A stretch of DNA of 64,000 nt from Acidobacteriota bacterium. GTDB lineage: Bacteria; Acidobacteriota; CAIWXX01. Position 1 is the stretch's first letter. Every line of letters begins with the position of its first letter. The notes beneath the pieces were generated by a model, which saw nothing but the letters and a program-made list of their open reading frames with translations, searched no databases and was not told where the DNA came from. Of this stretch, positions 30,702 to 55,757 are shown piece after piece. The stretch lies in contig JACPPM010000200.1 in NCBI GenBank assembly GCA_016191015.1, positions 21,954 to 85,953 on the forward strand, written 5' to 3'. The position numbers were made by a program, and so were the translations under genes.

Positions 30702-30747
30702 TTCCCCTCAATAACTTAGCGGTCTCAGCGGGACGGCGAGATTTCTC

Positions 30748-33423: not shown

Positions 33424-34220
33424 GGCGTCAGCTCGCGTGGTACGACTCCGTGGGCGTGGACCGGTTCGATATCGCCGTCTCTCTGAGCGCCGACAACAGC
33501 GACGGCATGATCTGGCACCGCGACATCACCGCCGATCGAGTCATCGCGCTCAGACCCTTCGCCGCGGCGCGCAACGCCGCTGGCGCGAACATCTACGTCC
33601 GGCCGGCTCGTGGTCACGACTGGCCGGTTCTCCTGCTCGATGACATCACTCGCTCTTGGGCGGATCGGATCCAGCGCGCCCGCGCCTGCTGCCTGGTCGA
33701 GACCAGTGCCGCCAATCACCAGGCGTGGATCCACTGCGCTCGTTCCCTGGATGAGCCGGAGCGGTGCGCGTGCCAGCGCGCGATCGCAACCAAGATCGGT
33801 GCGGATATCGGCTCGGTCAGTGGGGAGCACCTCGGCCGCCTCGCAGGCTACCGGAACAACAAACCCGGGCGCGGAGGGCACTGGGTACGCATCCATGCGA
33901 TCGGCGCCGGCCCAGCGTGGGATCCGTCGCGCGTCCTCGCCGCTCAGAGTCCCGGCGATCTCCCGCAGCCGACTCCACCCCCAGGGGGGGCTGTGGTTCA
34001 CGGCGGCGGCGGACCGGATGAGAGCGCCGACGAGTGGGGCTATGTATGCGGCCGGCTGACGTGGCTACGCGACTCGCACGCCTCGGACTCACGCATCACG
34101 GCCGAGCTCGCGGCGATGTCGGCGCAGCTGGAGCGACGCGCGGTCGCACGCCACAAAGCAAAGCCGGCACAGTACGCGGCCCGCACCGTCGCCAACGCAC
34201 GCCGGAGGATCGGGGTGTGA
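33414..34220 (+). CDS. Putative primase/replication protein (RepB'-like)
   Basis: Motifs NIYVRPARGHDWPVLLLDDI and QAWIH. Start overlaps the upstream stop. Assignment is tentative. Confidence 0.4.
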   Translation: MEMRRQLAWYDSVGVDRFDIAVSLSADNSDGMIWHRDITADRVIALRPFAAARNAAGANIYVRPARGHDWPVLLLDDITRSWADRIQRARACCLVETSAANHQAWIHCARSLDEPERCACQRAIATKIGADIGSVSGEHLGRLAGYRNNKPGRGGHWVRIHAIGAGPAWDPSRVLAAQSPGDLPQPTPPPGGAVVHGGGGPDESADEWGYVCGRLTWLRDSHASDSRITAELAAMSAQLERRAVARHKAKPAQYAARTVANARRRIGV

Positions 34221-36592: not shown

Positions 36593-37117
36593 ATGAGCAC
36601 CCATGACCCGAATCCACCCCAAGGGGGGGCTGTGGTTCATCCGCGCGACAACATGTCGCCCCCATCGCCTCAGGCACTGGCTGCAGAAGAGAGGCGTTTG
36701 CGTCGATGGATCGATCAATGGTACCGAGATCGCGCGCCCGGCCGGTGCGCCCGATACGGATCCCAGATGCTGGATCCGGTGTGGCTGGAGATCGAGGCCA
36801 CGGACTGGGGCTGGTGCTCAGTGCCTCTCATCTCCGTGGCGGAGTCATGGCGTAGGCACGGCCTCACGCGGCGTCTCCTCCAGTACCTGGAGTCGTTGCG
36901 AGGGATGCGGACGATCATGGTGAGGAATGTTCACTCTGACCATCTCCGAGAGGCTCTGGCGCGCTACGGTTACACAGATCTCGGCGGCGGCACGCACTGG
37001 CGGCGAGATTTGAGGTCGCCGGCGTCTTGGCTGCGTGGTCTCGCCATGCTCCGTTCTTGGTCGCGCCAGGTGTCATCGCCAGGACTCAGGGCAGGCGATG
37101 TTGCGCGGCGTGACTGA
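36593..37117 (+). CDS. Hypothetical protein (possible GNAT-like fold)
   Basis: AAGGAG ribosome-binding site. Weak motif-A-like RRHGLTRRLLQYL. Confidence 0.35.
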   Translation: MSTHDPNPPQGGAVVHPRDNMSPPSPQALAAEERRLRRWIDQWYRDRAPGRCARYGSQMLDPVWLEIEATDWGWCSVPLISVAESWRRHGLTRRLLQYLESLRGMRTIMVRNVHSDHLREALARYGYTDLGGGTHWRRDLRSPASWLRGLAMLRSWSRQVSSPGLRAGDVARRD

Positions 37118-44061: not shown

Positions 44062-45876
44062 ATGAGTGCTGGCGTTATGCTGGAGCAGGTGTGGCCATGG
44101 ATCGCGGCGTGGCCCTTCCGCCTCGTGGCTGCCGTCGTCGCGCGCAAGCCCGAGGTCCTCGCAGTGGTGCCGCACCTGCCAGCCGTTGCGCTGGCGTGCT
44201 GGGGACTCTGGTTGTGGGCTCGTCTCACGCGCAGGCAGCTACTCCATACGTGGCCGCGCCTCTCGAATTTCCTGGGCTCGGGATGGCTCGCGCCTATCGC
44301 GACATGGTTCACTGCGCTCACTCTGATGCTCATTCGCGGCACCTGGCTCGTGCGAGTCCTGCCAGGCCACGAGGTCGGTGCAGTATCGCACGCCGGCGCC
44401 CTCATGCTCTATCCGGCCGCGGCGTTCTGCGCATGGCGGATTCTGCCGCCGCTGGCGCGCAAGGGCAACCTCGGATCGGCCGTGTGGGCCGCGGTGAGGA
44501 ATGTTCGGGTGCGGTCCGGCGCTCCCTTCCTTCTGCCGGTGCGCATACCTCTTCGGCCGTGCAGAAGGCCCCGAGCGTGGGACATGGGACCCGCTGTGCT
44601 GGCACCTGACCGCGGCACCGTCTGCCGGCACACGCTGGTCCTTGGAGGGTCCGGAGCCGGAAAGGGTGCGTCGGTGCTCGGTCACATCATACAGAGCACG
44701 CACCTGCCGCTCATCTATCAGGACGTCAAGGCGGAGTGCCCGCTCCTTGTTGACCGGTGGCAGCGCCGCGGCAAGCCGCCGATTGTGTGGGGCGCGTCGC
44801 GTCCGGGCGGCTGGCCGTCGCTCAGCTGGAATCCTCTCCAGGAGGCATACGACGACCCAGATTTCGAGGATGCGTGCGGCGGGCTGGCAGGTGCGCTGCT
44901 ACCAGTGGTCAAGGGCGAGAACGCATGGGTCACCGACACGGCCCGTCTGCTCCTCACGCACATTTTTTCGCAACGCGTGTACAGAGCCCTCAGCGAGATT
45001 CGCGACGAGCTGAAGGGGCACGGAATCGCGGCGGTTCTCACGAGAGTCGGTTCGGCGGCTGGGCTCGACGAGCAGCTCGCCGGAAAGAACGCGAAAGAGT
45101 ACGCGTCGAACGCCCTCCAGACGACCCTTGATCACTTTGGGGTCGGGTGGGCGCGCGCCGCCACGACTCTGCACAACTTCAGTCTGTCAGATGTCCTGAC
45201 CACCGACTGCTACGTGCTATCGAATGAGTCCGATGAGAAGCGGCGTCTTCCCCTGCAGGTCTTCTGGCGGATGTTGTTCCGCAGAATGCTCAAGGCGTCC
45301 GAGCTGGGAAATATGCTATTGCTGGATGAGGGGCTCGCCGCAGGCTACATCCCGGGCTTGGCAGATGCGCTGAATACGATCCGCAGCAAGGGTGGTGCGA
45401 TCGTCTTCGCGATTCAGAATAGCGGGGGACTCAAGGCCGTCTACCGGGACGAGGCGGAGGCCGTGTCGGAGGCTTTCGCCTCAAAGATTGTCCTGCTCAG
45501 CGGGCTTAATCCGGAGGACCTCCAAGCACTCACGAAGCAGATGGGCGAGTTCACAGTGGTCCGCGGACGGCCGCTGCTCCCAGTCAAAGGTGAGCAGATT
45601 GCATCCTTGCTGCCGATCGAGTACGCGAGCAAGCTCGCGCTCCTCCCGAAGCAGTGGTGGGGCGTCATTCGAATCCCGGGTGTGGTGCGGACGGGCCGGC
45701 CCATCCTGGCGCGGATGATGGCGAGTAGTTTCGCCGTCCAGGAGCCGCACCCACACCTGGCGGAGGCGATGCAGCGGGCCTATCCCGCCCGACCATTCGC
45801 AGGCACAGCTGTGAATATCGTCCCGGAGGCTACTCCGGCCGAGCCAGACTCCACACCGCAGGCATTCGGACTATAG
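44062..45876 (+). CDS. Type IV secretion coupling protein (VirD4/TraG/TrwB-like)
   Basis: N-terminal TM helices. Walker A LVLGGSGAGKGASVL and Walker B MLLLDEG. Confidence 0.7.
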   Translation: MSAGVMLEQVWPWIAAWPFRLVAAVVARKPEVLAVVPHLPAVALACWGLWLWARLTRRQLLHTWPRLSNFLGSGWLAPIATWFTALTLMLIRGTWLVRVLPGHEVGAVSHAGALMLYPAAAFCAWRILPPLARKGNLGSAVWAAVRNVRVRSGAPFLLPVRIPLRPCRRPRAWDMGPAVLAPDRGTVCRHTLVLGGSGAGKGASVLGHIIQSTHLPLIYQDVKAECPLLVDRWQRRGKPPIVWGASRPGGWPSLSWNPLQEAYDDPDFEDACGGLAGALLPVVKGENAWVTDTARLLLTHIFSQRVYRALSEIRDELKGHGIAAVLTRVGSAAGLDEQLAGKNAKEYASNALQTTLDHFGVGWARAATTLHNFSLSDVLTTDCYVLSNESDEKRRLPLQVFWRMLFRRMLKASELGNMLLLDEGLAAGYIPGLADALNTIRSKGGAIVFAIQNSGGLKAVYRDEAEAVSEAFASKIVLLSGLNPEDLQALTKQMGEFTVVRGRPLLPVKGEQIASLLPIEYASKLALLPKQWWGVIRIPGVVRTGRPILARMMASSFAVQEPHPHLAEAMQRAYPARPFAGTAVNIVPEATPAEPDSTPQAFGL

Positions 45877-45886
45877 AGGAGGACAG

Positions 45887-46849
45887 ATGAGACAGAGAAT
45901 CGAAACACTGATCGTGCAATTGCGCCTTCGGGCAGGTTGGCGCGCACCGCTCGTTGTCGCTTGCGTATTGGCCGCTTGGATGTTTCTGCTGCCAACCACG
46001 GCTTATGCCCAGGAGACTATTGGCAGCAAGTTTATGGAGGACACGATGCGCAAAGCGCTCGTGCCCGTCGTCATGGCGTTCATGACCAAGGTCAGTAACT
46101 TCGTGACCCCATTGCTGGCGGGGTTGGCTACAATCTTCGTAATCTGGACCGCGATCAAGAACTTCCTCGCAGACAGGCCCTTCCAAGAGACCTTCGCAGA
46201 GATTCTGATGACACTGCTCATCGTCACGGCCCTCACGAACACGGACAACTACAGGTGGCTCTTCTGGGACATGATGTATGGTGGGCTCTACACGGAGCTT
46301 GTTGTCCCTGCCGGCGAAGGGGATACGGGCTTCCCGGCGGCTGTGCAAGAGCTGGCTCACCAGCAAGCGGAACGCTCCGCGAAGTGGAACCTCAGCACCG
46401 GCATGACGATCATCCAGCGCATCGGCGAATCCATCAACACACTCGAGACAGGAGGCGTTGCTTGGCTCATGCAAATCGGCGCACTCTTTGTCGAGCCCCT
46501 CATGACGTCCGCCACCATCTTTGCGATAATGTCGATCGCTTTCTTCGGGGCGATCGGCCAGATATTTCTCTCCATGTGGCTACTCGACTTCACGAAGGAC
46601 TATACGAAGAAGTGGTTCGGCTGCTATATGGGCGCGATATTCTCGTTGGTAGCAATCAGCTTCTTCGCGCCATTTCTGAGCGGGTGGTGGAGTGATGTTG
46701 TGGCCGAAGCGGTACAACTCGAGAACGCGAACAAGGGCATCACGGAAAAAATGCTTACTCCTGGCCTCATGAAGCAGTTCGTGTGGAGTTTCTTCGGCAT
46801 CATGGCAGCCCTCAAGGCGCCCAGTTTGGGGAAGGAGCTGTTCCGGTGA
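45887..46849 (+). CDS. Polytopic membrane protein (VirB6/TrbL-like candidate)
   Basis: GAGGAGG ribosome-binding site. At least five hydrophobic helices. This region is visibly AT-richer than the rest. Confidence 0.45.
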   Translation: MRQRIETLIVQLRLRAGWRAPLVVACVLAAWMFLLPTTAYAQETIGSKFMEDTMRKALVPVVMAFMTKVSNFVTPLLAGLATIFVIWTAIKNFLADRPFQETFAEILMTLLIVTALTNTDNYRWLFWDMMYGGLYTELVVPAGEGDTGFPAAVQELAHQQAERSAKWNLSTGMTIIQRIGESINTLETGGVAWLMQIGALFVEPLMTSATIFAIMSIAFFGAIGQIFLSMWLLDFTKDYTKKWFGCYMGAIFSLVAISFFAPFLSGWWSDVVAEAVQLENANKGITEKMLTPGLMKQFVWSFFGIMAALKAPSLGKELFR

Positions 46850-47796
46850 GTGTGATGATGATGGATGCGACGCGACAGCGGTTGGTAGCAGCGCTCATCG
46901 CTCTCGCAATCATGATGGCAATTGTCGTTCCGTGCGCGAGCGCAATGCCTCCGGTCTTCATGAACGAAGTCATCGACATGGCTCAAGACAACCAGAAGGT
47001 AGCGAGAATTCTGAGCGAGCTCGGGAGCTGGCACGCCACGGTGTCATCCGCTATTCAAACCTACCAGATGATGCGTCGGATGACCGAGACACTCACATCG
47101 GTTGTGGGGTCACTCGACAATCTCAGTCTGCGGGTAGTCCCACGTATCAAGTTGACGAGCCTCCTTGGGCTCGCATTCAACAACACAGAAATGCAGAAGT
47201 TTTTCGAGCTGATGGAAGGTGGGGCTAAGCTCAGCGATCTAGCGGAACTCTCCGGTTTCATGCAGAACCACTTTCTCACGCAGTACGACACTATTTTCCC
47301 TGACAGCTACAATCCGGTCAGCACAGACCCCGAGACCCCTCCCTTGCGTGCGAAGGATTGGGAGTTTGTGTGGGGGTGGGGGACGCTGAACCCGACCGAC
47401 GCGGAGCGCGGCATGCTAACTGCCGCCGAAGGTCGGATGGCTTGGCGCAAGATGCTCGCCGTCCGTAACCAGGCCAACCTCGCATCCATGCGCGGCATGG
47501 CGGAAGACAACACAACCGCGCTCTCTGCCTTGGCGGACAAGGTCAGGGAGGCCGAGAAGAGCGGAAAAGCTTACGACGCGATCATAGCGCAGGTCGGTGC
47601 CATGCTCGGCGACGTGCAATTGCAGACCGAACTCATCACCGGCCAGCTCGAGATGCTGGTCCAGGCAGGGGGCGAGGAAGTTGACCACATCGGCGCGGTT
47701 CGCAACGCCACACCAGAGGCTGTTGAGGCGATTTGCAAAGACGCCGGTGACGGATTGAATGGCTCGGCCTCGCTCTACTTCAGGCTGGGGTGGTGA
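46846..47796 (+). CDS. Hypothetical exported protein (possible VirB5/TrbJ-like)
   Basis: GTG start overlaps the upstream stop, 8 nt after AAGGAG. N-terminal hydrophobic segment, helical/coiled-coil rest. Confidence 0.4.
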   Translation: MSVMMMDATRQRLVAALIALAIMMAIVVPCASAMPPVFMNEVIDMAQDNQKVARILSELGSWHATVSSAIQTYQMMRRMTETLTSVVGSLDNLSLRVVPRIKLTSLLGLAFNNTEMQKFFELMEGGAKLSDLAELSGFMQNHFLTQYDTIFPDSYNPVSTDPETPPLRAKDWEFVWGWGTLNPTDAERGMLTAAEGRMAWRKMLAVRNQANLASMRGMAEDNTTALSALADKVREAEKSGKAYDAIIAQVGAMLGDVQLQTELITGQLEMLVQAGGEEVDHIGAVRNATPEAVEAICKDAGDGLNGSASLYFRLGW

Positions 47797-48093
47797 TCGC
47801 CGCCATGCCCCGGTGCGAAGACGGAGTGCCGGCAGTCACGACGAGTCCTTCGCCGTCGCTCGCCTGGGCCCGCTCTCACGCCCCGCGTCTCGGGCACGCT
47901 TCGCTCTCCGGCTCCGTTGCAGACGGGTCCCCTCCCGCCTTCGGCGGGAACCCTCCCCATCTTCACTCCGCCTCCGGCCTGAGAAGCGGGGACGCGGGCC
48001 TTTAGGGCGAGGCGACGGCGAAGGACTCATCGTGAGACAGGCGGCGGCAGACAATACACAGTAATGCGTGTATTGCCGCCAAAGCCGCACGAG

Positions 48094-48120
48094 GCGCCGG
48101 CTCAGGATCTATCGTGAGAC
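48094..48120 (+). repeat. Element-internal repeat family B, partial copy (…caggatctatcgtgagac)
   Basis: Matches the 3' part of the copies at 48967-49034 and 50277-50335. Confidence 0.55.
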
Positions 48121-48135
48121 AACCGTAAGAACTCC

Positions 48136-48330
48136 ATGAAGACGATTATCTGTCCGAATCCGAACTGCGGATACCGAGGTACGCCACGAAGAGAAGCGCG
48201 GGGGAGCGCCTTACTGGGGTGCTTTCTGATGTTCCTGTTTCTGCTTCCAGGCATCTTCTATTTCATGCTCAAGAGCGGGTGGCGCTACTACTGCCCGCGA
48301 TGCGGCCTGCAGATGGGCGTGCAGAACTGA
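48136..48330 (+). CDS. Small zinc-ribbon membrane protein
   Basis: CPNPNC...CPRC ribbon flanking a central TM helix (LLGCFLMFLFLLPGIFYFML). Confidence 0.45.
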   Translation: MKTIICPNPNCGYRGTPRREARGSALLGCFLMFLFLLPGIFYFMLKSGWRYYCPRCGLQMGVQN

Positions 48331-48468
48331 GGTGATGCCGCCAAGCCTGGCACCCCGAGTTGGCGAAATGCGTCAGCTGCGTCGGGCGGAGTATAATACA
48401 CATGTGACCGCAGCCCTCGGGAATTGCAAACGATTTGGCATCTTAAACCCCTATCGAGGTTGGCGCAC

Positions 48469-48948
48469 ATGAAGATTCGCCTAAATTCCACTCCATCGTC
48501 CAAGGAGCCGAGTCCGATCACTCCGCCAGTCATTCTTCATCTCAGCCCAGAAGTTATCGCATGCGCTGAGAAACAGCGGGAGGACTGCCTGAGAGAGCAG
48601 CGACGGAAAGAAGACGCTCTGAGAGCGGACGAAGAAGAAGAGGCACAACGAGAGGAACAGCGCCAATCGGGCGCGCGCCTCCATGAGTCTGTAGCTTTGC
48701 GGCAGCTGGCAAATGCTCGAATCGAAGAAGAAAGGGCGGCCCGAACGAAGGCGGACGAGGCGCACACAAGGGAAGAAGAAATCCGAAGGCAACGACTCGG
48801 TGAAAGGGAATCTGTCTCCGTCGGAGCCGGAGGTAAAACCGGAGGCTCCAAGGCCAAGGAGAATGCGGAGGATGAGGATGAGAAAGGCGGCTCAACCCCT
48901 TCGACCTTCATCAGCTTCTTCCGTCGTTTCTTCGCGCCCCGGGGATGA
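48469..48948 (+). CDS. Hypothetical highly charged (E/R-rich) protein
   Basis: Coiled-coil-like EEEEAQREEQR composition. Confidence 0.3.
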   Translation: MKIRLNSTPSSKEPSPITPPVILHLSPEVIACAEKQREDCLREQRRKEDALRADEEEEAQREEQRQSGARLHESVALRQLANARIEEERAARTKADEAHTREEEIRRQRLGERESVSVGAGGKTGGSKAKENAEDEDEKGGSTPSTFISFFRRFFAPRG

Positions 48949-48966
48949 CCGTTGGAACTGTAGGTC

Positions 48967-49034
48967 CCCCTATCCCCCGCCCGGGGTAACGCGGAACGGA
49001 GGCTCGGGCGCCGGCGCAGGATCTATGGTGAGAC
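48967..49034 (+). repeat. Element-internal repeat family B, full copy 1
   Basis: cccctatcccccgcccggggtaacgcggaacggaggctcgggcgccggcgcaggatctatggtgagac. Confidence 0.6.
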
Positions 49035-49063
49035 GGGGGAACGGAACAGCCGGCGAATGAAGT

Positions 49064-49315
49064 TTATAGTTGGCGCTCCTTTAGGTACTGCGCAAGTGCC
49101 TCGATCACAATATCGACCATTTCGCGTCGGGTGCTCGCTGCGGCCACCTTCAGGCGATAGTGGAGCTCTTCCGGCAAATTGAACGTAGCCTTTTTCATCG
49201 CCGCTTTTCCGAATGGCGACTGCGCCTCTATACGCTGTATAGCTGTAGCCTGTATGCCTGTATGTCCAGCCTGCCTTTGTCCGGTGACTCCTGCCAATCC
49301 TACGCGCTTAGACAT
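49064..49315 (-). CDS. RHH/ParG-like partition DNA-binding protein
   Basis: C-terminal RHH (KKATFNLPEELHYRLKVAAASTRREMVDIVIEALAQYL). Lies immediately downstream of parA on the same strand. The start could instead be the internal ATG at 49198. Confidence 0.5.
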   Translation of the reverse strand: MSKRVGLAGVTGQRQAGHTGIQATAIQRIEAQSPFGKAAMKKATFNLPEELHYRLKVAAASTRREMVDIVIEALAQYLKERQL

Positions 49316-49953
49316 TTTCTCAACTCCTTTACGAGTAGTCGCAATTCCTTGGTCGCCGCTGAGTGTGGCGCAAGACCGGAAACGGTCCGCCCCGCGACAG
49401 ATGCCTCTGCTAGGGCCACCCGTTGTGCTATTTCGGCACGGCAGACAGGCAGTCCGATGCTTCTGGCAGCTTCGCGAGCCTCATCGCCGATTGCCGTGCC
49501 GACGATCCGCCGGCTGATCACGATGTAAGCACGCAACCCCGCATTGCTGCTCCGGGCGCGTGCGATCATCTCCGCCATCCCTTCGCCGCTCCACAGGTCG
49601 AACGCAGACGGCTGGATCGGAACAAGAACGAGATCCGCGACAGCCAGGGCCGACCGCGTAATGCTCTCGGCGCCCGCTGGTCCCCCAGGGGGGCAGTCAA
49701 TCAGGATCATGTCGTACTTGTGGCGGAGTTTGGGCACCTCAGCATGGAGGATTGGCGCCGGCATAGCGACGACATGGAAAGGGATTGAACCCTCCGATCG
49801 AACGCCACGCCAGCGAACAACGGATCCCTGCGGATCGGCGTCAACGAGAAGTGCCTCAAGCCCTTCTTCCCCCAGGATCCCAGCCAATCCGAGCGCGATC
49901 GTGGTCTTGCCACATCCGCCCTTCTGGTTGGCAATCACAATAACGTGACCCAT
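49300..49953 (-). CDS. parA: ParA/ParF-family partition ATPase
   Basis: Deviant Walker A NQKGGCGKTT. ParA motifs VDADPQGS and ILIDCPP. 217 aa, small plasmid-type. Confidence 0.85.
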   Translation of the reverse strand: MGHVIVIANQKGGCGKTTIALGLAGILGEEGLEALLVDADPQGSVVRWRGVRSEGSIPFHVVAMPAPILHAEVPKLRHKYDMILIDCPPGGPAGAESITRSALAVADLVLVPIQPSAFDLWSGEGMAEMIARARSSNAGLRAYIVISRRIVGTAIGDEAREAARSIGLPVCRAEIAQRVALAEASVAGRTVSGLAPHSAATKELRLLVKELRKCLSA

Positions 49954-49990
49954 ATGTCTGTAGATACAGACTACAGCGATACAGCGATCT
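49954..49990. promoter_or_regulatory. CTGTAG/CTACAG repeat cluster directly upstream of parA (candidate operator or centromere)
   Basis: tgtctgtagatacagactacagcgatacagcgatc. Related CTGTAT repeats lie at 49225-49270. Confidence 0.5.
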
Positions 49991-50276
49991 TGTCAAGTCG
50001 CGCCGTGCGTCGCCGGCGCGAGAGAGCGACAGCGGAGTTCGGACCGCCGCTCGCCCAGAGTCCCTGGGCTCCCTCCTCAACCCCGCTGGGCGGGGACCCG
50101 ATGCCCCCTAGCCCCGTCGGGGAACCCGGACCCAGCGAGGGCGATGGACGACGAGGTGTCAGGACCTTCGCGCAGATCCACCAGGACCGTGGCTTCGAGG
50201 AGCCGCGGAATTCCGGACCTGCGCGCGGCCGGGCGGCCGTGCTACTCCAGGGGCAAGCCCCTGGACCCATGTCCCA

Positions 50277-50335
50277 CCTATCCCCCGAAGGGGGTAACGC
50301 GGACGGAGGCTCCGGCTCAGGATCTATCGTGAGAC
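50277..50335 (+). repeat. Element-internal repeat family B, full copy 2
   Basis: cctatcccccgaagggggtaacgcggacggaggctccggctcaggatctatcgtgagac. Confidence 0.6.
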
Positions 50336-50600
50336 ACGATCGATCGATCGACATAGCCCCGGCCGCGGGATCGGAAAGGAGTTGACTTTTGACCCCACAA
50401 GTGCCAACCTTCGCCTATGGGTACCCGTAGGGCAGACAGGACCGCGTTAGATCTGCGCGAAGCACTCGGCGCGTCGCAAGAGACATCGGATTTCTCCACC
50501 GCCTCGGGCCGGAAACGAATCAAGGCGAGGTCGTTGTGGAGTTCGATGGGCGGTTTTACCGCATTACGAAATTCGATTCAGCGTGAATTAGGAGGATCTC

Positions 50601-50978
50601 ATGGCTAGAATCCACGACACCAGCAAGAGCCTGCCGCGTGTGCGCGATACGAGCACGGCCCTCGCGTGTATACCAGCCAAGAAAGTGACGACGACCCTGG
50701 GCGCTAATCGTACGCCTCACTTGAGGCAGGGTGCAAAGGGGCCCATCAGCTTGCTCGCGTTAGCGGAGCTCCTGAGCCAACAGTTGGCGTCCACAGGCGG
50801 CCGACCAGGTCTCGCAAACGCAGAGCGGCGCCAAAAGATCCCTACGTTGAAGGGGGACTGGCAAAGGCTCAAGCATATCGCGTCCCAGCTGCAGCAACGA
50901 GGCGTTCCCTGCACACCGGGGCAGGTGGCGGGCATATTGCTCCACGAAGACATTAATTGGCTCGAGGCCGCGATATAG
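50601..50978 (+). CDS. Hypothetical protein
   Basis: Strong AGGAGGA ribosome-binding site. No recognizable domain. Confidence 0.4.
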   Translation: MARIHDTSKSLPRVRDTSTALACIPAKKVTTTLGANRTPHLRQGAKGPISLLALAELLSQQLASTGGRPGLANAERRQKIPTLKGDWQRLKHIASQLQQRGVPCTPGQVAGILLHEDINWLEAAI

Positions 50979-51325
50979 AGAGAGAAGCCGGAAGGACGCT
51001 CTCCGGGAAAAGCAACCTGAAGAAGAACGCCAGAGGAACTACGATCGCTAGACCGTTGACGGCGAAGCAGCGGCGGGAGGTTGCGGCGCTCGCTCAGCGA
51101 CCCGACGGCGAGATCGACTACTCCGACATTCCACCGCTCGAAGACAAGTTCTGGAGGGACGCCGTCCGGAATCCTTTTTATCGTCCGGTCAAGCGACAGC
51201 TCACCGTGCGGTTGGACGTGGATGTGCTCGTGTGGCTGCGCAGCCAGGGCAGGGGATACCAGACGAGAATCAACGCCCTGCTGCGTGAGGAGATGCTCAA
51301 GAGGATGGGCAAGAAAACAGCGTAG
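50957..51325 (+). CDS. BrnA/DUF4415-family antitoxin-like protein
   Basis: Family motif DYSDIPPLEDKFWRDAV...LDVDVL.WLRSQGRGYQTRINALLR. Start codon uncertain (possibly TTG). Confidence 0.5.
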   Translation: MARGRDIEREAGRTLSGKSNLKKNARGTTIARPLTAKQRREVAALAQRPDGEIDYSDIPPLEDKFWRDAVRNPFYRPVKRQLTVRLDVDVLVWLRSQGRGYQTRINALLREEMLKRMGKKTA

Positions 51326-51404
51326 CAAATCCCCCCAGACCCCCCTCCTAATACTAATATGCGCTGTCTCCGCAGCGCATCTATCTGATGCGGCTCAGAG
51401 TGAT

Positions 51405-51442
51405 GTTACCTGGGAGGTAACATTTGTTACCTCCCAGGTAAC
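51405..51442. other. Perfect 17-bp-stem hairpin (gttacctgggaggtaac-attt-gttacctcccaggtaac)
   Basis: Inverted repeat read directly. Lies between the brnA-like gene and brnT. Confidence 0.6.
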
Positions 51443-51480
51443 ATCCCTTCTCCTCGTGCCCGTCCTGCCATCCGGGCCAC

Positions 51481-51545
51481 GGTGAACCACTGCCCCCCCC
51501 CTGGGGGTGGAGTCGGCGGCAGAGAGCTTCCGGGATTCCTGCCGT
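51481..51545. repeat. Element-internal repeat family C, copy 1, with a C9 homopolymer
   Basis: gtgaaccactgccccccccctgggggtggag...gagagcttccgggattcctg. Related to 52225-52290, and the core recurs at 33970 and 36620. Confidence 0.6.
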
Positions 51546-51619
51546 GGGACGGTGGCGCTAAGAAGGAGCCCTCGCGCACAGCCCTGCAATTGTAGCTACA
51601 GAAGGAGTTATAATGGTTC

Positions 51620-51903
51620 GTGAGGTTCGCGTGGGATGAAACTAAGAATACGGAGAACATTCGGAACCACGGCTTCGACTTTGCCGATGTGTGGGAGCTC
51701 TTCGAAAATGCACTCCTCGTGGACCTGGATACTCGCGAGATTATGGCGAGGACCGGTGGATAGGGATCGGACTGCTCAAGAGTGTGGCGGTCGTGGCCGT
51801 CGTCGTGTTTGCCGAGAGAGGACCGGAAACCGTGCGAGTCATCTCGCTCACGAAGGCAACGAAGCATGAAAAAGAAAGATACGAAAACGCCGTCAAGGAC
51901 TGA
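51620..51903 (+). pseudogene. brnT: brnT (DUF497 RNase toxin) disrupted by a -1 frameshift
   Basis: The N-terminal part (VRFAWDETKNTENIRNHGFDF...) stops at 51748. The C-terminal part (DYGEDRWIGIGLLKSVAVVAVVVFAERGPETVRVISLTKAT) continues in the -1 frame. Confidence 0.6.
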
Positions 51904-52141
51904 CTGGAAGCGAGTCAAGGCCATGTCCGATCCTGAGATTGATTGCTCCGATGTCCCTGAGCTCGGCGAGGATTTCTTTGCGCGAGCGGTTCTCTGGCCC
52001 GGGCCCAAGAAGCAAATCACTCTACGGCTTGACCCTGACGTCTTGGATTTCTTCAAGCACCAGGGCCGTGGCTATCAACGGAACATCAACACCGTGCTGC
52101 GGCGATACGTCGAGCTCCAAAGGCAGCGACACGCCAGCTAA
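51866..52141 (+). CDS. brnA: BrnA antitoxin
   Basis: MKKKDTKTPSRTDWKRVKAMSDPEID...ITLRLDPDVLDFFKHQGRGYQRNINTVLRRYV. Overlaps the 3' end of brnT. Confidence 0.7.
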   Translation: MKKKDTKTPSRTDWKRVKAMSDPEIDCSDVPELGEDFFARAVLWPGPKKQITLRLDPDVLDFFKHQGRGYQRNINTVLRRYVELQRQRHAS

Positions 52142-52224
52142 AGCCGATTCCTCACAAACGATGGCACGCCCCAGCGTGCCATCGCCTCACCTCGTGACTT
52201 TCTCGGTGGGGCCGGAATGGATGT

Positions 52225-52290
52225 GAACCACAGCCCCCCCCTGAGGGTGGAGGGGGCTGCGGAGAGCTTCCGGGATTCCTGGAGTGGGGC
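52225..52290. repeat. Element-internal repeat family C, copy 2, with a C8 homopolymer
   Basis: gtgaaccacagccccccccctgagggtggagggggctgcggagagcttccgggattcctgg. Confidence 0.6.
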
Positions 52291-52340
52291 GGCAAAGACC
52301 AATCGTCCGGCTCGCCGCGTGAGACAGCTTGAAGACAAGG

Positions 52341-52691
52341 CTAGCGCAGTGGCAGGTACTGGACGCGCTGTGCCAGTTCGCCCGGTTCGGCGAGCACGGC
52401 CAGCAGGTGGAGATCGGCGACGAACTGCCCGATTGTCATGCGCAATTGGTGGGCATAGATCACGCCGGTGAACGGGCGTCCTGCATTCTGCCACGCGTGA
52501 GCATGCCTAAGGAAGTCCTCGTCTTGGGTCACCACCACCCTCTCGAGCTCGCAAGCTCTGGCAAGCACGGCAGCGTCGCTCTCGCCAACGTGTCCGTCCT
52601 GCTGGACACTCAAAACATCTATGCCAGCCATGCTCAGAGCCGCGGTGACCGCGGCCGGCACGTGCTCGTCCATGTAGAGCCGCAGGCCCAC
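52341..52691 (-). CDS. DUF5615-family (PIN-like) putative toxin
   Basis: About 116 aa with a conserved acidic/His core. Paired with an upstream DUF433 gene through an ATGA overlap. Confidence 0.55.
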   Translation of the reverse strand: MGLRLYMDEHVPAAVTAALSMAGIDVLSVQQDGHVGESDAAVLARACELERVVVTQDEDFLRHAHAWQNAGRPFTGVIYAHQLRMTIGQFVADLHLLAVLAEPGELAQRVQYLPLR

Positions 52692-53050
52692 TACAAGCGG
52701 CCCTCAGCCTTCATGCGAGCAAGGAATGGAGATTCGCCTTCTCGCGCGCGAAGATCCTCCACGCGTCGGACCTGGGCACCGATTTCTACATCCATCTCAG
52801 GCTTGTGATCGTAGTAGTACGAGAGCGCGGCATGAATCTGCGCCAGGCTGATCTGCCGATAGTGCTGAATGAAGATCTCCTCGGGGCTCCATCCGTGGGC
52901 GAGGTGATCGAGCGCGATCTCCACAACTTTGCAGGAGGTTCCCTCGATCGTGGCTCGTCCCTCCGCGTCGAGCCGGATATGTGGAACTGACGTGACAGCT
53001 TTGGACAACTTGCTTTCCTCCTCCCTCGAATATACTACGTGCTCTCTCAT
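52691..53050 (-). CDS. DUF433-family putative antitoxin
   Basis: DUF433-like region IRLDAEGRATIEGTSCKVVEIALDHLAHGWSPEEIFIQHYRQISLAQIHAALSYY. Confidence 0.55.
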   Translation of the reverse strand: MREHVVYSREEESKLSKAVTSVPHIRLDAEGRATIEGTSCKVVEIALDHLAHGWSPEEIFIQHYRQISLAQIHAALSYYYDHKPEMDVEIGAQVRRVEDLRAREGESPFLARMKAEGRL

Positions 53051-54204
53051 CCAGCTTTGCTGATCGGCACAATTTTCTCGGTCGTTCGTCTCTCAACGGC
53101 CTCGCGCCGTTCCTTGATATCCATCGGAGAGTAATGCAGCTCCGCAATCCGGACGTCGGTCCGCAGCACGCGTGCCGCCATAAGCAACCCAGCTTGCTGC
53201 GTGATGTCACGGCCGAAGGTTCTCCGGAGGTCGTGGATGTTAACATTCGGGATGTGTGCTGTCGTCCGGATCCAGTTCCAGTGGTTCTTCAAGTCTTGTC
53301 TCCCGCGATCCGGATCTTGACCGGGAAACACGAAAAGAGAACGCCTGGGTACTTGCCTGAGCTTCCCGATCGTATACGCCGGGAGTGGGACTTCCTGGGA
53401 TTTGCCGGCCTTTGTTTGCGGAAGTGTCCAGATTGCTCGCTCGAAGTTGATGTCATCCCACTTCGCCCTCAGTACTTCGCTCTTGCGAGCTCCCGTCGTC
53501 ACAAGCATGAGGAACGCGGTGCGTACGAAGGGTTCGGGAATTTGCTCGATCGCGATGAGGACGCGCTCGAGCTCCTCTTCAGTCAACGCCCGCTTGCGAG
53601 GGGGCGGCTCGGGGTACCGACGGACCTTTCTCGCCCGATTCTCCATGATCAAGCTGCGCCTCCATGCCTCTTGCAGGCATCCGCTCACACTGGCCAGAAA
53701 CCTGTTGGCCGCGGCGTTGTGACCTTCAGCAGCCAGCCTCGCTGCCGGCTTCTCGATGTCTTCCACGCTCACTTGGTCGAGTCTCTTCTCTCCGAATTCT
53801 GCCGATGCCTTGCGGAGATAATTACGGTCCTCTGATGGCCTTTTCTTCCGCAAAGCTATTCGCTCGAGGTACTCGGTGATCCATTCGCGCATCAGGGGTA
53901 TCGCCTGACGGCGTTGCTTATCAGCGAGAGGGTCGCCGCCCTTGATCACGCACGCGAGCTTTTCGATCGCCATCTGACGTGCGGCTTCAACCGTGAGGGG
54001 ACCGTAAAGACCGAGAGTGATTCTGCGCCTCGTCTTGCGACCGCCGTACCGCAGCACGAATGCCTTACGACCACGCGGAGCCTCCTTGCTCCCGGGATAG
54101 GCAACGACACCGAGACCGGGGATCTCGTTGTCCCAGACGTAAGCACGATCGCCCGCGTTTGTCTCGAGAGAGTCAATCAGGCGCTTAGTGAGTCGACCTT
54201 TCAT
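53047..54204 (-). CDS. int: Tyrosine-type site-specific integrase (P4-like)
   Basis: N-terminal arm-binding domain (LTKRLIDSL...AYVWDNEIPGLGVVAYPGS), a core-binding domain, and a C-terminal catalytic domain with a conserved H..R...Y region. Confidence 0.9.
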   Translation of the reverse strand: MKGRLTKRLIDSLETNAGDRAYVWDNEIPGLGVVAYPGSKEAPRGRKAFVLRYGGRKTRRRITLGLYGPLTVEAARQMAIEKLACVIKGGDPLADKQRRQAIPLMREWITEYLERIALRKKRPSEDRNYLRKASAEFGEKRLDQVSVEDIEKPAARLAAEGHNAAANRFLASVSGCLQEAWRRSLIMENRARKVRRYPEPPPRKRALTEEELERVLIAIEQIPEPFVRTAFLMLVTTGARKSEVLRAKWDDINFERAIWTLPQTKAGKSQEVPLPAYTIGKLRQVPRRSLFVFPGQDPDRGRQDLKNHWNWIRTTAHIPNVNIHDLRRTFGRDITQQAGLLMAARVLRTDVRIAELHYSPMDIKERREAVERRTTEKIVPISKAG

Positions 54205-54245
54205 CCTACTCCTCCTGTGTCAGTGCGCTGGTCAGTAGGTTGCTC

Positions 54246-54266
54246 GGGTACCACCAGGGTACCACG
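54246..54266 (+). promoter_or_regulatory. Tandem GGGTACCACC arm-type repeat, right end of element
   Basis: gggtaccacc-a-gggtaccacg, in the same orientation as the left-end copy at 30748-30768. Confidence 0.6.
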
Positions 54267-54381
54267 CACTCATAGTAACCCGCCGACACCAGAATACGCT
54301 TCACACGACTAAGTGTAACATAACTATGAATGTCGTCAACACCCAAATACGCCCGGCAACGTATAAAACGTTTACAGCCTA

Positions 54382-54430
54382 CTGACTACGAATCAGTAGG
54401 TCGGGAGTTCGAGCCTCTCCGGGCGCGCCA
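54382..54430 (+). repeat. attR: partial tRNA-Arg 3' half
   Basis: ctgactacgaatcagtaggtcgggagttcgagcctctccgggcgcgcca, with 3 mismatches to the intact tRNA. Confidence 0.85.
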
Positions 54431-54564
54431 TGTTTTCAATATTTTGCGAGAGATCGACCGGTTCGATGCTTCGGCTGGCGACCGCCGGGCAACCAGTGGG
54501 GTGGCAACGGCCACGGATGGCGCGCTTCACCAGCTCTCGCGACGCGATCTCCTCGCACACAATG

Positions 54565-54836
54565 GGTAGGTCCCGCCCCGGCAGCGGGAGACTGCGGCCC
54601 TCGCCCAGAGACCCGACAGCGACATCGACTATTCCGACATTCCCCCGCTCGAAGGCAAATTCTGGAGGACCGCCGCCCGAAATCATTTTTACCGCCCGAT
54701 CAAATGACAGCTCACCGTACGGTCGGACGCGGATGTGCACGTGTGGCCGCGCAGCCAGGATGGGGGTAACAGACCGGTATCAACGCCCTGCCGCCTGAGG
54801 AGATGCTCAAGAGCATGGGCAAGAAGACAGCATAGC
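54565..54836 (+). pseudogene. Decayed brnA-like (DUF4415) antitoxin copy
   Basis: About 85% nucleotide identity to 51040-51325. Contains an in-frame TGA and an indel. Lies outside attR. Confidence 0.6.
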
Positions 54837-54890
54837 GAGGACTCGAAATCCCCCCACAGCCCCCGTTGGGGTCGAGTCCGTCGCGCGCGT

Positions 54891-55526
54891 CTATGATCGT
54901 GCGGCCTGTGCCACCAATTGATCGAATCTGGCGATCAATCTCTTCGGAGCGTGCTTGAGCAAGTAGTCACGAACGCGCTGCGCGTCGATCCCTACGAGGA
55001 TAAGCTGCGACACATCCCGGTGATCATCCGGCCGGGGCGATTTGAGTTTCAGATAGACCACAACCTCAACGGGGGCCACCGCGATGCCCTCGCTACTGGG
55101 CGCGCTGGCGAACGCTTCCGCGAGGTGCTCTTCGCCCGGTCCGATCGAGAGATAGTCGATCGGCACGTCACCGACCATGAGGGGCACCTCCGGGTGCATC
55201 GTCACGACGCCGCCCTCGTGCTTGATGAATGCTTCCTCGCCCACAAGGTAGTCGACGTCTTTCGTCGTCCGGGGGTGACCGTAAGCTCCAACCGCCATCC
55301 CCCCGACGAGAATGTGTCGCACCCCGGCCTTCTTGAGCAGCTCGTTGGAAGTTCTGGCAGCGTTGACTATGCGCGGCGCGACCAGGTCGAAGACTCGGTT
55401 GAGGTCAACCTCGGCATCCTCGGTTGGCGGATTGATCTGGATCCGAGCAGAAGGGCCAGACGCGTCGGTATCGTCGGGGGGCTCTCCGCCGGGATCTTGC
55501 GGAGCTCCGAATCGTATGCTGGGCAT
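54891..55526 (-). CDS. Hypothetical nucleotidyltransferase-fold protein
   Basis: GG.A...G..R.T.D.D-like motif (LVGGMAVGAYGHPRTTKDVDYLV). Confidence 0.4.
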   Translation of the reverse strand: MPSIRFGAPQDPGGEPPDDTDASGPSARIQINPPTEDAEVDLNRVFDLVAPRIVNAARTSNELLKKAGVRHILVGGMAVGAYGHPRTTKDVDYLVGEEAFIKHEGGVVTMHPEVPLMVGDVPIDYLSIGPGEEHLAEAFASAPSSEGIAVAPVEVVVYLKLKSPRPDDHRDVSQLILVGIDAQRVRDYLLKHAPKRLIARFDQLVAQAARS

Positions 55527-55566: not shown

Positions 55567-55757
55567 ATCTTCACTGTCGTGCGTTTCTCTGCCGCCTTGG
55601 GCGGTCCTCTGGCCTGGCCCAAAGAAGCAGATCACCTTGCGACTTGACCCCGACGTCTTGAAGTTCTTCGAGCGCCGGGGCCGTGGCTATCAACGGAACA
55701 TCAATACAGTGCTCAGGCGGTACGTCGAGCTCCAAGAGCACCGATGCGCCGGCTGAG
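55567..55757 (+). pseudogene. 5'-truncated brnA remnant
   Basis: About 88% identical to the 3' part of brnA at 51960-52141. Encodes ...PKKQITLRLDPDVLKFFERRGRGYQRNINTVLRRYVELQE. Confidence 0.6.

What the first reader, a model, noticed from the sequence alone, without database searches (positions are those of the whole stretch)
50957..52141. BrnT/BrnA region with a frameshifted toxin and surplus antitoxins
- The brnT (DUF497) reading frame breaks around 51730-51745 with a single-nt shift. The N-terminal part (FAWDETKNTENIRNHGFDF) and C-terminal part (DYGEDRWIGIGLL...ISLTKAT) are in different frames.
- The downstream brnA is intact, and a second brnA-like (DUF4415) gene lies just upstream at 50957-51325.

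This could be a genuinely inactivated toxin that leaves orphan antitoxins able to neutralise related toxins. It could also be a sequencing error at a homopolymer.
Basis: seen in the sequence. Interest (0 to 1): 0.5.

Follow-up and report, generated by a model that had tools for sequence, protein, structure and literature searches.

The report
Decayed BrnT/BrnA toxin-antitoxin pair
Two side-by-side BrnT/BrnA toxin-antitoxin modules on an integrated mobile element of an Acidobacteria genome have both lost their toxin genes but kept their antitoxin genes, which is an ordinary way for such modules to decay.

Summary
brnT (51620-51903) is split by the loss of one G from GAG-GAT after base 51739, which gives a stop at 51761-63. 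brnA (51866-52141) is intact. A second BrnA gene lies at 50957-51325.

The lesion is not in a homopolymer. The same sequence appears, 100% identical, in separate assemblies of two other sequencing runs, so a sequencing error is unlikely. There is no slippery site, and dN/dS against the nearest intact homologue is 0.14, so this is a recent true pseudogene.

New points:
- The upstream BrnA is also the leftover of a brnTA module. About 20 terminal codons of its toxin survive (about 50988-51051), and its usual ATG is CTG.
- The cluster lies at the integrase end of a roughly 23.7-kb element inserted at tRNA-Arg.
- Beyond the element's right attachment repeat (attR) lie two further, degraded brnA copies.
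- In relatives, 18 of 78 (genomes) and 13 of 36 (metagenomes) brnA loci lacked a single-frame, full-length brnT match upstream. The 17 genome lesions I aligned all differ.

Verdict: ordinary toxin-first decay of a known type II system. A protective role for the surviving antitoxins is possible but untested.

The parts
51620..51903 (+). brnT2 pseudogene. It has a GTG start, as in homologue L001. One G is lost after 51739. The N-terminal frame runs 51620-51763 (40 native codons, then 7 out-of-frame codons, then TAG at 51761-63). The C-terminal frame resumes at 51739 (GAT = D41) and ends at TGA 51901-03.
51866..52141 (+). brnA2, an intact 91-aa BrnA/DUF4415 antitoxin gene. It overlaps the 3' end of brnT2 by 38 nt, as in L001.
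51585..51614 (+). Conserved upstream block of the brnT2-brnA2 module. It holds the palindrome TGTAGCTACA (51591-51600), GGAG (51604-07) and TATAAT (51609-14). I take it to be the operator/promoter and ribosome-binding region. Homology with L001 begins here.
   Evidence: Most of the upstream sequences printed carry TGTA(G/A)CTACA followed by GGAGTTA(C/T)A just before the start codon.
50957..51325 (+). brnA1, a second BrnA/DUF4415 gene. The ORF is open from TTG 50957 (122 aa). The position of the relatives' ATG start is CTG (51017-19), with a 9-nt insert between the Shine-Dalgarno-like GGAAGGA and that codon. An in-frame TTG lies at 51056.
50988..51051 (+). Stump of brnT1, the cognate toxin gene of brnA1. 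About its last 20 codons remain (SRKDALREKQPEEERQRNYDR, then TAG at 51049-51), in the frame that overlaps the brnA1 5' end. Everything upstream of it has been replaced.
   Evidence: Relatives end ...ARRANRKEKQRYEKERQKNRN*.
50601..50978 (+). 125-aa ORF of unknown function that occupies the place of the missing brnT1 body. It belongs to a real family of 53 homologues that is not regularly linked to BrnA.
51482..51555 (+). Left copy of a roughly 75-nt direct repeat that brackets the brnT2-brnA2 cassette. It has a run of 9 C.
52223..52295 (+). Right copy of the roughly 75-nt direct repeat. It is 86% identical to the left copy and has a run of 8 C.
51399..51448 (.). Near-perfect 24-nt-arm palindrome (two GTTACC-N5-GGTAAC units) between brnA1 and the left repeat. 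It could be a terminator or an operator.
   Evidence: (fold z = -10.35)
52160..52183 (+). Hairpin GATGGCACG-CCCCAG-CGTGCCATC just after the brnA2 stop. It looks like a terminator but has no T run.
   Evidence: z = -4.7
52341..53050 (-). Neighbouring pair that appears intact: DUF433 (52691-53050) and the PIN-like DUF5615 (52341-52691). It is probably a third toxin-antitoxin-type module.
53047..54204 (-). Tyrosine integrase (Arm-DNA-bind_3 and Phage_integrase domains) of the integrative element.
54381..54431 (+). Right attachment repeat (attR). It copies the 3' 51 nt of tRNA-Arg(ACG) with 48 of 51 bases identical to 30652-30702. The intact tRNA is at 30625-30701.
54570..54893 (+). brnA1', a degraded copy of brnA1 outside the element. 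DNA homology covers 54581-54864, 82% identical to 51070-51345. It has CGA changed to TGA at 54705-07, a 1-nt deletion, and lacks its 5' part.
55601..55754 (+). brnA2', a 5'-truncated copy of the C-terminal half of brnA2 outside the element. It is 83% identical to 51986-52139.

Best explanation
This is a decaying pair of tandem type II BrnT/BrnA (DUF497/DUF4415) toxin-antitoxin modules. They sit in the maintenance region, next to the integrase, of a roughly 23.7-kb integrative element inserted at tRNA-Arg(ACG) in an Acidobacteria metagenome-assembled genome.

Module 2 (brnT2-brnA2) keeps its conserved operator-like palindrome, its start codon and its antitoxin gene. The toxin gene has lost one G after base 51739. 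Translation therefore stops after 40 native residues plus 7 out-of-frame residues. That product keeps the counterparts of Asp6, Glu7 and Lys9. It lacks every residue after position 40, including the counterparts of Arg41 and Glu78 that BrnT needs for RNase activity. It should not be toxic.

Module 1 lost almost all of brnT1 by deletion or replacement. Only about 20 terminal codons remain. brnA1 is still an open frame, but its usual ATG is now CTG.

Shown here: both lesions are real, both antitoxin reading frames are open, the lesion in brnT2 is recent, and toxin loss is common among relatives.

Inferred: the order of decay reflects the well-known asymmetry of these systems. Losing the antitoxin while the toxin works is harmful, whereas losing the toxin is neutral or helpful. 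The antitoxin genes may then persist by inertia, as autoregulated DNA-binding proteins, or because they still neutralise related BrnT toxins. The neighbouring DUF433/DUF5615 pair may make the brnTA modules dispensable for keeping the element in the cell.
For: Position and nature of the lesion.

Reproducibility: the sequence is 100% identical in Logan assemblies of two separate runs. No gene was called across brnT in those assemblies. No intact allele was found in the protein database, where the best hit is 77% identical.

Recent lesion: dN/dS of the repaired brnT2 against L001 is 0.14. The N-terminal part gives 0.18 and the C-terminal part 0.095. brnA2 gives 0.095. Neither half of brnT2 has any other stop or shift.

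Residues lost: alignment to B. abortus BrnT (3u97) puts D6, E7 and K9 before the break and the R41 and E78 counterparts (R46, E84) after it. The residue roles come from the review PMC5086665, which cites Heaton 2012.

Not programmed: the 0 frame has no X XXY YYZ heptamer and there is no homopolymer of 5 or more near the site. The 17 disrupted homologues I aligned carry different indels, nonsense codons and deletions at different places.

brnT1 stump and the CTG start. Of 36 informative metagenome loci with a brnA1-type gene, 35 show a BrnT match directly upstream, and 23 of those are full-length in one frame.

Base rate in genomes: of 78 informative species-representative genomes with a brnA2-type gene, 60 have an intact brnT upstream, 17 have a disrupted one and 1 has none.

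Integrative element: tRNA-Arg and its 3' repeat, integrase, HTH_17, AAA_25, RepB primase, type IV coupling protein, TrbL and ParA.

Literature: orphan antitoxins are abundant in other bacteria (PMC7192599).
Against: I could not inspect raw reads. The two Logan assemblies may come from the same site and population as the genome in the window. They rule out an assembler artefact, but not a variant fixed in that one population.

I did not verify which sequencing platform produced those runs. The link to the Illumina study PMC7906910 is from my memory, and the run numbers were not found in its supplements.

Nothing here shows whether brnA1 or brnA2 is expressed. Loss of translational coupling after the early stop, and the CTG start of brnA1, could silence them.

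The rest of the genome is not visible, so I do not know whether intact brnT paralogues exist for these antitoxins to act on.
Confidence: 0.85

Rival explanations
1. Sequencing or assembly error: the real DNA has GAGGAT and an intact brnT2.
For: Single-base indels are a common artefact, and I could not inspect reads. All copies I found may come from one sampling project.
Against: The site is a GG pair, not a homopolymer run. Identical sequence comes from separate assemblies of two different runs. No intact allele exists in the protein database that includes those assemblies. Similar toxin lesions, including nonsense codons that indel errors cannot produce, occur in 17 of 78 related genomes.
Confidence: 0.04
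2. Programmed -1 ribosomal frameshift or transcriptional slippage: a small amount of full-length BrnT2 is made on purpose, as a way to limit toxin dose.
For: The shift needed is -1. A slip that re-reads G51739 would restore the exact ancestral protein (my reading).
Against: The overlap region has no X XXY YYZ slippery heptamer and no A or T run. The codons at the site (CGC GAG ATT) do not allow tRNA re-pairing. The closest homologue and 60 of 78 relatives are in one frame. The disrupted relatives are broken at different positions by different lesions.
Confidence: 0.02
3. The toxin-less brnA genes are kept by selection as an anti-addiction or immunity device. The element's BrnA1 and BrnA2 would neutralise BrnT toxins of resident or competing elements, for example the older relative whose remains lie beyond attR, or of chromosomal brnTA copies. 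This rival concerns why the antitoxins persist. It accepts that brnT2 is a true pseudogene.
For: Both brnA frames are open and carry the conserved residues. brnA1 keeps the toxin-binding segment seen in 7vd7 chain B. The operator-like palindrome of module 2 is intact. In related genomes, BrnA next to a broken brnT scores as well as BrnA next to an intact one (median 181.4 against 182.8 bits, p = 0.62). brnTA is very common in Acidobacteriota: 166 relatives matched, and nearly all of the 80 listed are from that phylum. The concept is established in the literature (PMC7192599 and PMC7354431).
Against: brnA1 has lost its usual ATG and has a 9-nt insert after its Shine-Dalgarno-like sequence. The copies outside the element are plainly decaying, with a nonsense codon, a frameshift and a truncation. 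The low dN/dS of brnT2 shows its loss is recent, so simple lag explains an intact brnA2 equally well. The comparison is biased, because the loci were found through BrnA similarity. There is no evidence of expression.
Confidence: 0.2
4. brnA1 is not an orphan but has been re-paired with a new toxin, the 125-aa ORF at 50601-50978 that now sits in the toxin position.
For: The ORF ends 10 nt before the brnT1 stump, and the TTG-started brnA1 frame overlaps it by 22 nt. It belongs to a conserved family found on mobile-looking contigs.
Against: Homologues are not next to BrnA genes. Their neighbours are DUF433/PIN_10 genes or unrelated small ORFs. There is no hit in Pfam, NCBIfam or PADLOC. The AlphaFold model has no significant fold match. 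Its conserved motif (RRQKIP..DW..L..LA...PTPGQVAS.LLH) looks more like a DNA-binding ribbon-helix-helix than a toxin, though that is my inference only.
Confidence: 0.05

Closest known systems
[quoted passage not shown] 2012; PDB 3u97)
   Same: The gene order is the same, toxin first and antitoxin second, with overlapping ends. The repaired BrnT2 covers the whole Pfam profile (76.4 bits) and aligns to 3u97 with the D6, E7, K9, R41 and E78 counterparts present. Both BrnA proteins pass the Pfam threshold. A conserved palindrome lies upstream, which fits autoregulation by the BrnA DNA-binding domain.
   Different: No intact toxin is encoded here. brnT2 is frameshifted and brnT1 is reduced to a stump. 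As it stands the locus is therefore not a working toxin-antitoxin system.
Solved toxin-antitoxin complex PDB 7vd7 (chain A a BrnT-type toxin, chain B an antitoxin fragment)
   Same: The repaired BrnT2 matches chain A (E = 1.1e-12, residues 1-90). BrnA1 residues 34-77 match chain B (E = 2.4e-9). BrnA1 therefore keeps the segment that is bound to the toxin in that structure.
   Different: BrnA2 gives no significant sequence match to chain B. I found no paper describing 7vd7.
Decaying toxin-antitoxin loci and orphan antitoxins. Examples are the orphan antitoxins surveyed in Klebsiella (PMC7192599) and the chromosomal ccd anti-addiction model (Saavedra De Bast et al. 2008 and the ccdO157 decay study by Mine et al. 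2009, both from my own knowledge).
   Same: The toxin is lost first and the antitoxin frame is retained. The same context as a valid pair is still recognisable. Neutralisation of related toxins has been proposed in those cases too.
   Different: Here two adjacent modules of the same family lost their toxins by two different routes on one integrative element. Older copies of both antitoxin genes lie just outside the element.
tRNA-targeting integrative (conjugative or mobilisable) elements with P4-type tyrosine integrases
   Same: There is a 51-nt direct repeat of the tRNA-Arg 3' end, an integrase with an Arm-DNA-binding domain, an HTH_17 excisionase-like gene, a replication/primase gene, a type IV coupling protein, TrbL, ParA and a cluster of toxin-antitoxin genes.
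   Different: I did not identify a complete mating-pore gene set or a relaxase, so whether the element is conjugative or only mobilisable is open. The integrase lies at the end far from the intact tRNA.

Membership tests
BrnT toxin (PF04365 / DUF497) | Sequence match to the family profile above the curated threshold | tested here: met
   The repaired 94-aa sequence scores 76.4 bits against a cut-off of 34.5 and covers profile positions 1-77 of 77. As encoded, the fragments score 31.7 bits (below the cut-off) and 36.9 bits.
BrnT toxin (PF04365 / DUF497) | One uninterrupted reading frame that encodes the whole domain | tested here: not met
   A 1-nt deletion after 51739 gives a stop at 51761-63. 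The gene is a pseudogene of the family, not a working member.
BrnT toxin (PF04365 / DUF497) | Residues needed for RNase activity in B. abortus BrnT (Asp6, Glu7, Lys9, Arg41, Glu78) | tested here: met
Only the first three remain in the product actually encoded. Two nearly invariant positions differ in the window (E4 is A, R78 is T).
BrnT toxin (PF04365 / DUF497) | Ribonuclease activity and growth inhibition | not testable with these tools
   This needs expression of native and repaired clones.
BrnA antitoxin (PF14384 / DUF4415) | Sequence match to the family profile above the curated threshold | tested here: met
   BrnA2 scores 57.4 bits and BrnA1 56.5 bits against a cut-off of 26.1. BrnA1 read from the CTG position scores 57.1 bits.
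BrnA antitoxin (PF14384 / DUF4415) | Gene lies directly downstream of a brnT gene and overlaps it | tested here: met
   brnA2 overlaps brnT2 by 38 nt, as in L001. brnA1 overlaps the brnT1 stump. Relatives show the same arrangement: 35 of 36 and 77 of 78 informative loci have a BrnT match upstream.
BrnA antitoxin (PF14384 / DUF4415) | Usual start codon and ribosome-binding site | tested here: inconclusive
   brnA2 has ATG 51866 with GAAGG upstream. brnA1 has CTG where relatives have ATG, plus a 9-nt insert. In-frame TTG codons exist at 50957 and 51056.
BrnA antitoxin (PF14384 / DUF4415) | Binds and neutralises BrnT and represses its own promoter | not testable with these tools
   Support is indirect only. 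BrnA1 residues 34-77 match the toxin-bound chain of 7vd7, and a conserved TGTAGCTACA palindrome lies upstream of module 2.
Functional type II toxin-antitoxin module | Both an active toxin gene and a cognate antitoxin gene are present | tested here: not met
   A six-frame search of all 64 kb with a BrnT profile found only the two halves of brnT2. Both modules lack an intact toxin.
tRNA-integrated mobile element | Direct repeat of the tRNA 3' end at the far boundary, plus a tyrosine integrase | tested here: met
   tRNA-Arg(ACG) lies at 30625-30701. Bases 54381-54431 are 94% identical to 30652-30702. The integrase is at 53047-54204. The Logan contig ends inside the repeat, at 54412.
Integron gene cassette (considered because a repeat brackets the brnTA cassette) | attC site with RYYYAAC and GTTRRRY cores, plus an IntI integrase nearby | tested here: not met
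   By my reading, the repeats contain no such cores. The only integrase is a P4-type enzyme with an Arm-DNA-binding domain. The repeat shows no significant fold.

The most novel reading that the evidence does not exclude
The integrative element carries two toxin-less BrnA genes on purpose, as portable immunity. On entering a cell, its BrnA1 and BrnA2 would neutralise the BrnT toxins of a resident related element at the same tRNA-Arg site, or of chromosomal brnTA copies. That would cancel the resident's addiction and allow it to be displaced or to decay. The degraded brnA1' and brnA2' copies just beyond attR would be the trace of such a displaced neighbour.
Probability: 0.12. Interest if true: 0.45.

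Novelty: new member of a known kind. Interest (0 to 1): 0.17.

Why it matters
By itself it matters little. It is one more example of a toxin-antitoxin module that decays toxin first.

It has three practical uses.
- For annotation: brnT2 should be marked as a pseudogene, brnA1 as the leftover of a second module, and the region as part of a tRNA-Arg integrative element.
- As a base rate: 18 of 78 species-representative genomes (mostly Acidobacteriota) and 13 of 36 metagenome loci lacked a single-frame, full-length brnT match upstream of a related brnA gene. The 17 disrupted genes I aligned, all from the genome set, were broken by independent lesions.
- As a test case: one small locus offers two toxin-less antitoxins of one family, and the toxin can be rebuilt by adding one base. 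That makes it convenient for testing whether orphan antitoxins still protect against related toxins.

Tried and rejected
- **Programmed frameshift.** I scanned the 0 frame for slippery heptamers and for homopolymers and found none. Lesions in relatives are scattered.
- **Second hidden brnT under the 125-aa ORF.** A six-frame profile search at E up to 10 found nothing upstream of the stump.
- **125-aa ORF as a toxin or as a BrnA relative.**
  - No hit in Pfam, NCBIfam or PADLOC.
  - Gene neighbours vary between homologues.
  - The AlphaFold model has mean pLDDT 74 and no fold match with E below 3.
  - hhalign against BrnA gave a probability of 0.7%.
- **The 75-nt repeat as a structured RNA, a known RNA family, an integron attC site or a widespread repeat.**
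  - Fold z-scores range from -0.3 to +0.6 on three of four strands tested.
  - Rfam returned only a chance microRNA hit on the palindrome.
  - Species-representative genomes and IMG/VR gave no exact matches.
- **Sigma-70 promoter scan of 50300-52400.** It found nothing by its criteria.
- **Confirming the sequencing platform of the runs.** The run numbers were not found in the text or supplements of PMC7906910.
- **Reading Heaton 2012 (PMC3320955).** The paper is not held, so residue roles are cited from the review PMC5086665.
- **L075.** It looked disrupted but is masked with N, so I excluded it.
Full report
**1. What the sequence shows**

- Pfam BrnT_toxin matches two frames. Profile positions 1-35 fall in 51620-51763 and positions 35-77 in 51691-51903.
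- BrnA_antitoxin matches 51782-52141 (57.4 bits) and 50957-51325 (56.5 bits).
- Joining the two BrnT halves with one added base gives a 94-aa protein. It scores 76.4 bits over the entire profile and aligns without gaps to 16 homologues through the consensus LDTREDYGEDRWIGIG.

**2. The exact lesion**

The closest homologue is P0001 (77% identical, 94 aa). It lies on a Logan contig, L001, with an intact brnT followed by brnA.
- The DNA alignment shows CGAGAGGATTATGG in L001 against CGCGA-GATTATGG in the window.
- One G of a GG pair is missing after base 51739. The N-terminal frame then runs into TAG at 51761-63.
- Both loci start brnT with GTG at the same place, and in both brnA overlaps the brnT end by 38 nt.
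- Homology between the two loci begins at TGCAATTGTAGCTACA (about 51585) and ends at the brnA stop. The module is therefore a discrete unit of about 555 bp in unrelated surroundings.

**3. Error or real?**

Several results argue against a sequencing error.
- The site is not a homopolymer. The nearest run of 5 or more bases is at 51869.
- The exact BrnA2 protein, the integrase and the 125-aa ORF product were found on Logan contigs from three runs.
- The contig from SRR12113390 is 100% identical to window 45866-54412. The contig from SRR12113401 is 100% identical to window 50408-51914. Both span the lesion.
- No gene was called across brnT in those assemblies.
- A search of 5.8 billion proteins with the repaired toxin found nothing closer than 77%. 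No intact allele was therefore assembled from these samples.

The 125-aa protein is named by NCBI as a hypothetical protein of an Acidobacteria bacterium MAG, locus tag HYX75_15180. From memory, that tag series belongs to an Illumina groundwater study (PMC7906910). I could not confirm the link. I put the chance of an artefact at about 4%.

**4. Programmed or accidental?**

Restoring the frame needs a -1 shift. The overlap has no X XXY YYZ heptamer and no slippery run.

Among 80 genomes carrying a brnA2-type gene, 78 were informative.
- 60 have brnT in one frame upstream, 17 have a disrupted brnT and 1 has none (L129 re-scored as intact, L075 excluded because it is masked with N, L126 too short).
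- The 17 lesions all differ. They include 1- and 2-nt deletions, insertions, TAG/TGA/TAA nonsense codons, internal deletions and a replaced 5' end.

These are independent accidents, not recoding.

**5. Age of the lesion and what is lost**

- dN/dS of the repaired brnT2 against L001 is 0.14, with dS of about 0.96. brnA2 gives 0.095.
- Neither half of brnT2 has any further defect.
- The gene was therefore under purifying selection for nearly all of its divergence and broke recently.
- Alignment to B. abortus BrnT (3u97) places D6, E7 and K9 before the break. The counterparts of R41 and E78 (R46, E84) fall after it. Those five residues are reported as important for RNase activity (PMC5086665, citing Heaton 2012).
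- The 47-aa product lacks every residue after position 40. On my reading of the fold described in that review, this removes most of the four-stranded sheet. I did not map the strands onto this sequence.
- Two nearly invariant positions already differ in the window (E4 is A, R78 is T). I cannot interpret this further.

**6. The upstream BrnA is the leftover of a second module**

- BrnA1 residues 34-77 match the antitoxin chain of the solved complex 7vd7 (E = 2.4e-9).
- I fetched 43 metagenome loci with brnA1-type genes, of which 36 were informative. 35 show a BrnT match directly upstream, and 23 of those are full-length in one frame. The other 12 are split between frames or only partial. I did not check those 12 one by one, and a few may be divergent intact genes.
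- In the window that position is taken by an unrelated 125-aa ORF (50601-50978).
- Alignment with the three closest relatives shows that the last 20 or so codons of the lost brnT1 survive. The window reads SRKDALREKQPEEERQRNYDR then TAG (51049-51), where relatives read ...RKEKQRYEKERQKNRN*.
- The relatives' brnA start, ATG AAR AAR, is CTG AAG AAG here (51017-19). A 9-nt insert follows the GGAAGGA motif.
- The frame is still open from TTG 50957, so expression is possible but uncertain.

**7. The 125-aa ORF**

- It belongs to a real family of 53 homologues with a strong motif, STGGRPGL..RRQKIP..DW..L..LA...PTPGQVAS.LLH.
- It has no hit in Pfam, NCBIfam or PADLOC.
- Its homologues sit next to DUF433/PIN_10 genes or unknown small ORFs, not next to BrnA genes.
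- An AlphaFold model (mean pLDDT 74) has no significant fold match.
- It is unrelated to BrnA by profile comparison.

I see no reason to call it a replacement toxin.

**8. Genomic setting**

- The only tRNA in the window, tRNA-Arg(ACG), lies at 30625-30701. Its 3' 51 nt recur at 54381-54431 with 48 of 51 bases identical.
- Between the two repeats lie these genes:
  - an HTH_17 gene;
  - an AAA_25 gene;
  - a RepB-type primase;
  - a type IV coupling protein;
  - TrbL;
  - ParA;
  - the toxin-antitoxin cluster;
  - a DUF433/DUF5615 pair;
  - a tyrosine integrase (53047-54204).
- This is an integrative element of about 23.7 kb.
- The Logan contig ends inside the repeat at 54412, as expected where an assembly graph branches.

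**9. More remnants outside the element**

A protein-level scan of the whole window found further BrnA-like pieces beyond the right attachment repeat.
- 54581-54864 is 82% identical to brnA1. It carries CGA changed to TGA at 54705-07 and a 1-nt deletion.
- 55601-55754 is 83% identical to the 3' half of brnA2 and lacks the 5' half.
- A 211-aa ORF on the other strand separates them. It has no Pfam match.

The same pair of antitoxin genes therefore existed in an older, diverged relative at this site and is now plainly decaying. No toxin sequence remains there.

**10. Do orphan antitoxins stay under selection?**

- In the 78 genomes, BrnA next to a broken brnT scores like BrnA next to an intact one against a profile built from the intact set. 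The medians are 181.4 and 182.8 bits, and Mann-Whitney gives p = 0.62.
- This fits either recent toxin loss or continued selection.
- It is biased, because the loci were selected by BrnA similarity.
- Surveys in Klebsiella found a median of nine orphan antitoxins per strain and discuss anti-addiction as one possible role (PMC7192599).

**11. Regulatory signals**

- Upstream of brnT in this clade there is a conserved TGTA(G/A)CTACA palindrome followed by GGAGTTA(C/T)A and the start codon. It is intact in the window (51591-51614).
- I infer that this is the BrnA operator plus the ribosome-binding site. If so, module 2 is probably still transcribed.
- The early stop lies about 100 nt upstream of the brnA2 ATG, so translational coupling is lost. 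brnA2 has its own GAAGG nine to ten bases upstream.

**12. Verdict**

- The best reading is ordinary, recent, toxin-first decay of two adjacent BrnT/BrnA modules on an integrative element (confidence about 0.85).
- A protective role for the surviving antitoxins remains an untested possibility (about 0.2 for selection of any kind, and 0.12 for the specific displacement scenario).
- Nothing lies outside known kinds of system. Interest is low.

Noticed in passing
window 51482-51555 and 52223-52295 (+); partial copies at 33985-34001 (-) and 36624-36640 (-); degenerate copy at about 54845-54885: The motif (G/A)TGAACCAC-N-G-C(7-9)-TKRGGGTGGA occurs four times, where chance would give 0.07. All four copies lie inside the integrative element. 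Two copies extend to about 75 nt at 86% identity and bracket the brnT2-brnA2 cassette. The C run differs between copies (9, 8, 7, 7). Two copies lie inside coding regions on the opposite strand: the end of the RepB-primase ORF and the start of ORF 36593-37117. The motif shows no significant RNA fold and has no exact match in species-representative genomes or IMG/VR. It could be a protein-binding site or a recombination substrate able to delete the cassette. It remains unexplained.
   Followed up: partly
window 51399-51448: A near-perfect palindrome made of two GTTACC-N5-GGTAAC units (fold z = -10.35). It is unique in the window. It lies between brnA1 and the left repeat, next to an unusually AT-rich stretch, TAATACTAATAT. 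Compared with the degraded copy outside the element, the segment at about 51347-51480 looks like an insertion into the sequence that follows brnA1.
   Followed up: partly
window 30625-30702 and 54381-54431: tRNA-Arg(ACG) and a 51-nt copy of its 3' end bound an integrative element of about 23.7 kb. The element carries HTH_17, AAA_25, RepB primase, a type IV coupling protein, TrbL, ParA, toxin-antitoxin genes and an integrase. A further 29-nt match (54237-54265 against 30739-30767, 90%) lies just inside both ends.
   Followed up: partly
window 54570-54893 and 55601-55754: Degraded copies of both brnA genes lie just outside the element's right end. They are 82-83% identical to the inner copies. 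One has a nonsense codon and a frameshift, and the other is 5'-truncated. A 211-aa ORF of unknown function (54891-55526, minus strand) separates them. They are probably the remains of an older related element.
   Followed up: yes
window 50601-50978: A 125-aa protein from an uncharacterised family of 53 homologues. Its invariant motif is STGGRPGL..RRQKIP..DW..L..LA...PTPGQVAS.LLH. Homologues lie on mobile-looking contigs next to varying small genes. No family, defence-system or fold match was found. The motif resembles a ribbon-helix-helix DNA-binding unit, but that is my inference only.
   Followed up: partly
loci L060-L139, about 25 nt upstream of brnT; window 51591-51614: The palindrome TGTA(G/A)CTACA followed by GGAGTTA(C/T)A is strongly conserved directly before the brnT start across Acidobacteriota brnTA modules of this clade. 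It is a likely BrnA operator.
   Followed up: partly
window 52341-53050 (-): A DUF433 gene and a PIN-like DUF5615 gene overlap by one base and appear intact. They are probably the element's remaining working toxin-antitoxin-type pair.
   Followed up: no
window 49953-50600: A 650-nt stretch with no called gene lies between the divergent parA and the 125-aa ORF. It holds short direct repeats (CAGGACCTTCGC three times, at 50160-50224) and a 13-nt perfect inverted pair (50166-78 and 50450-62). It could be a partition or regulatory site.
   Followed up: no
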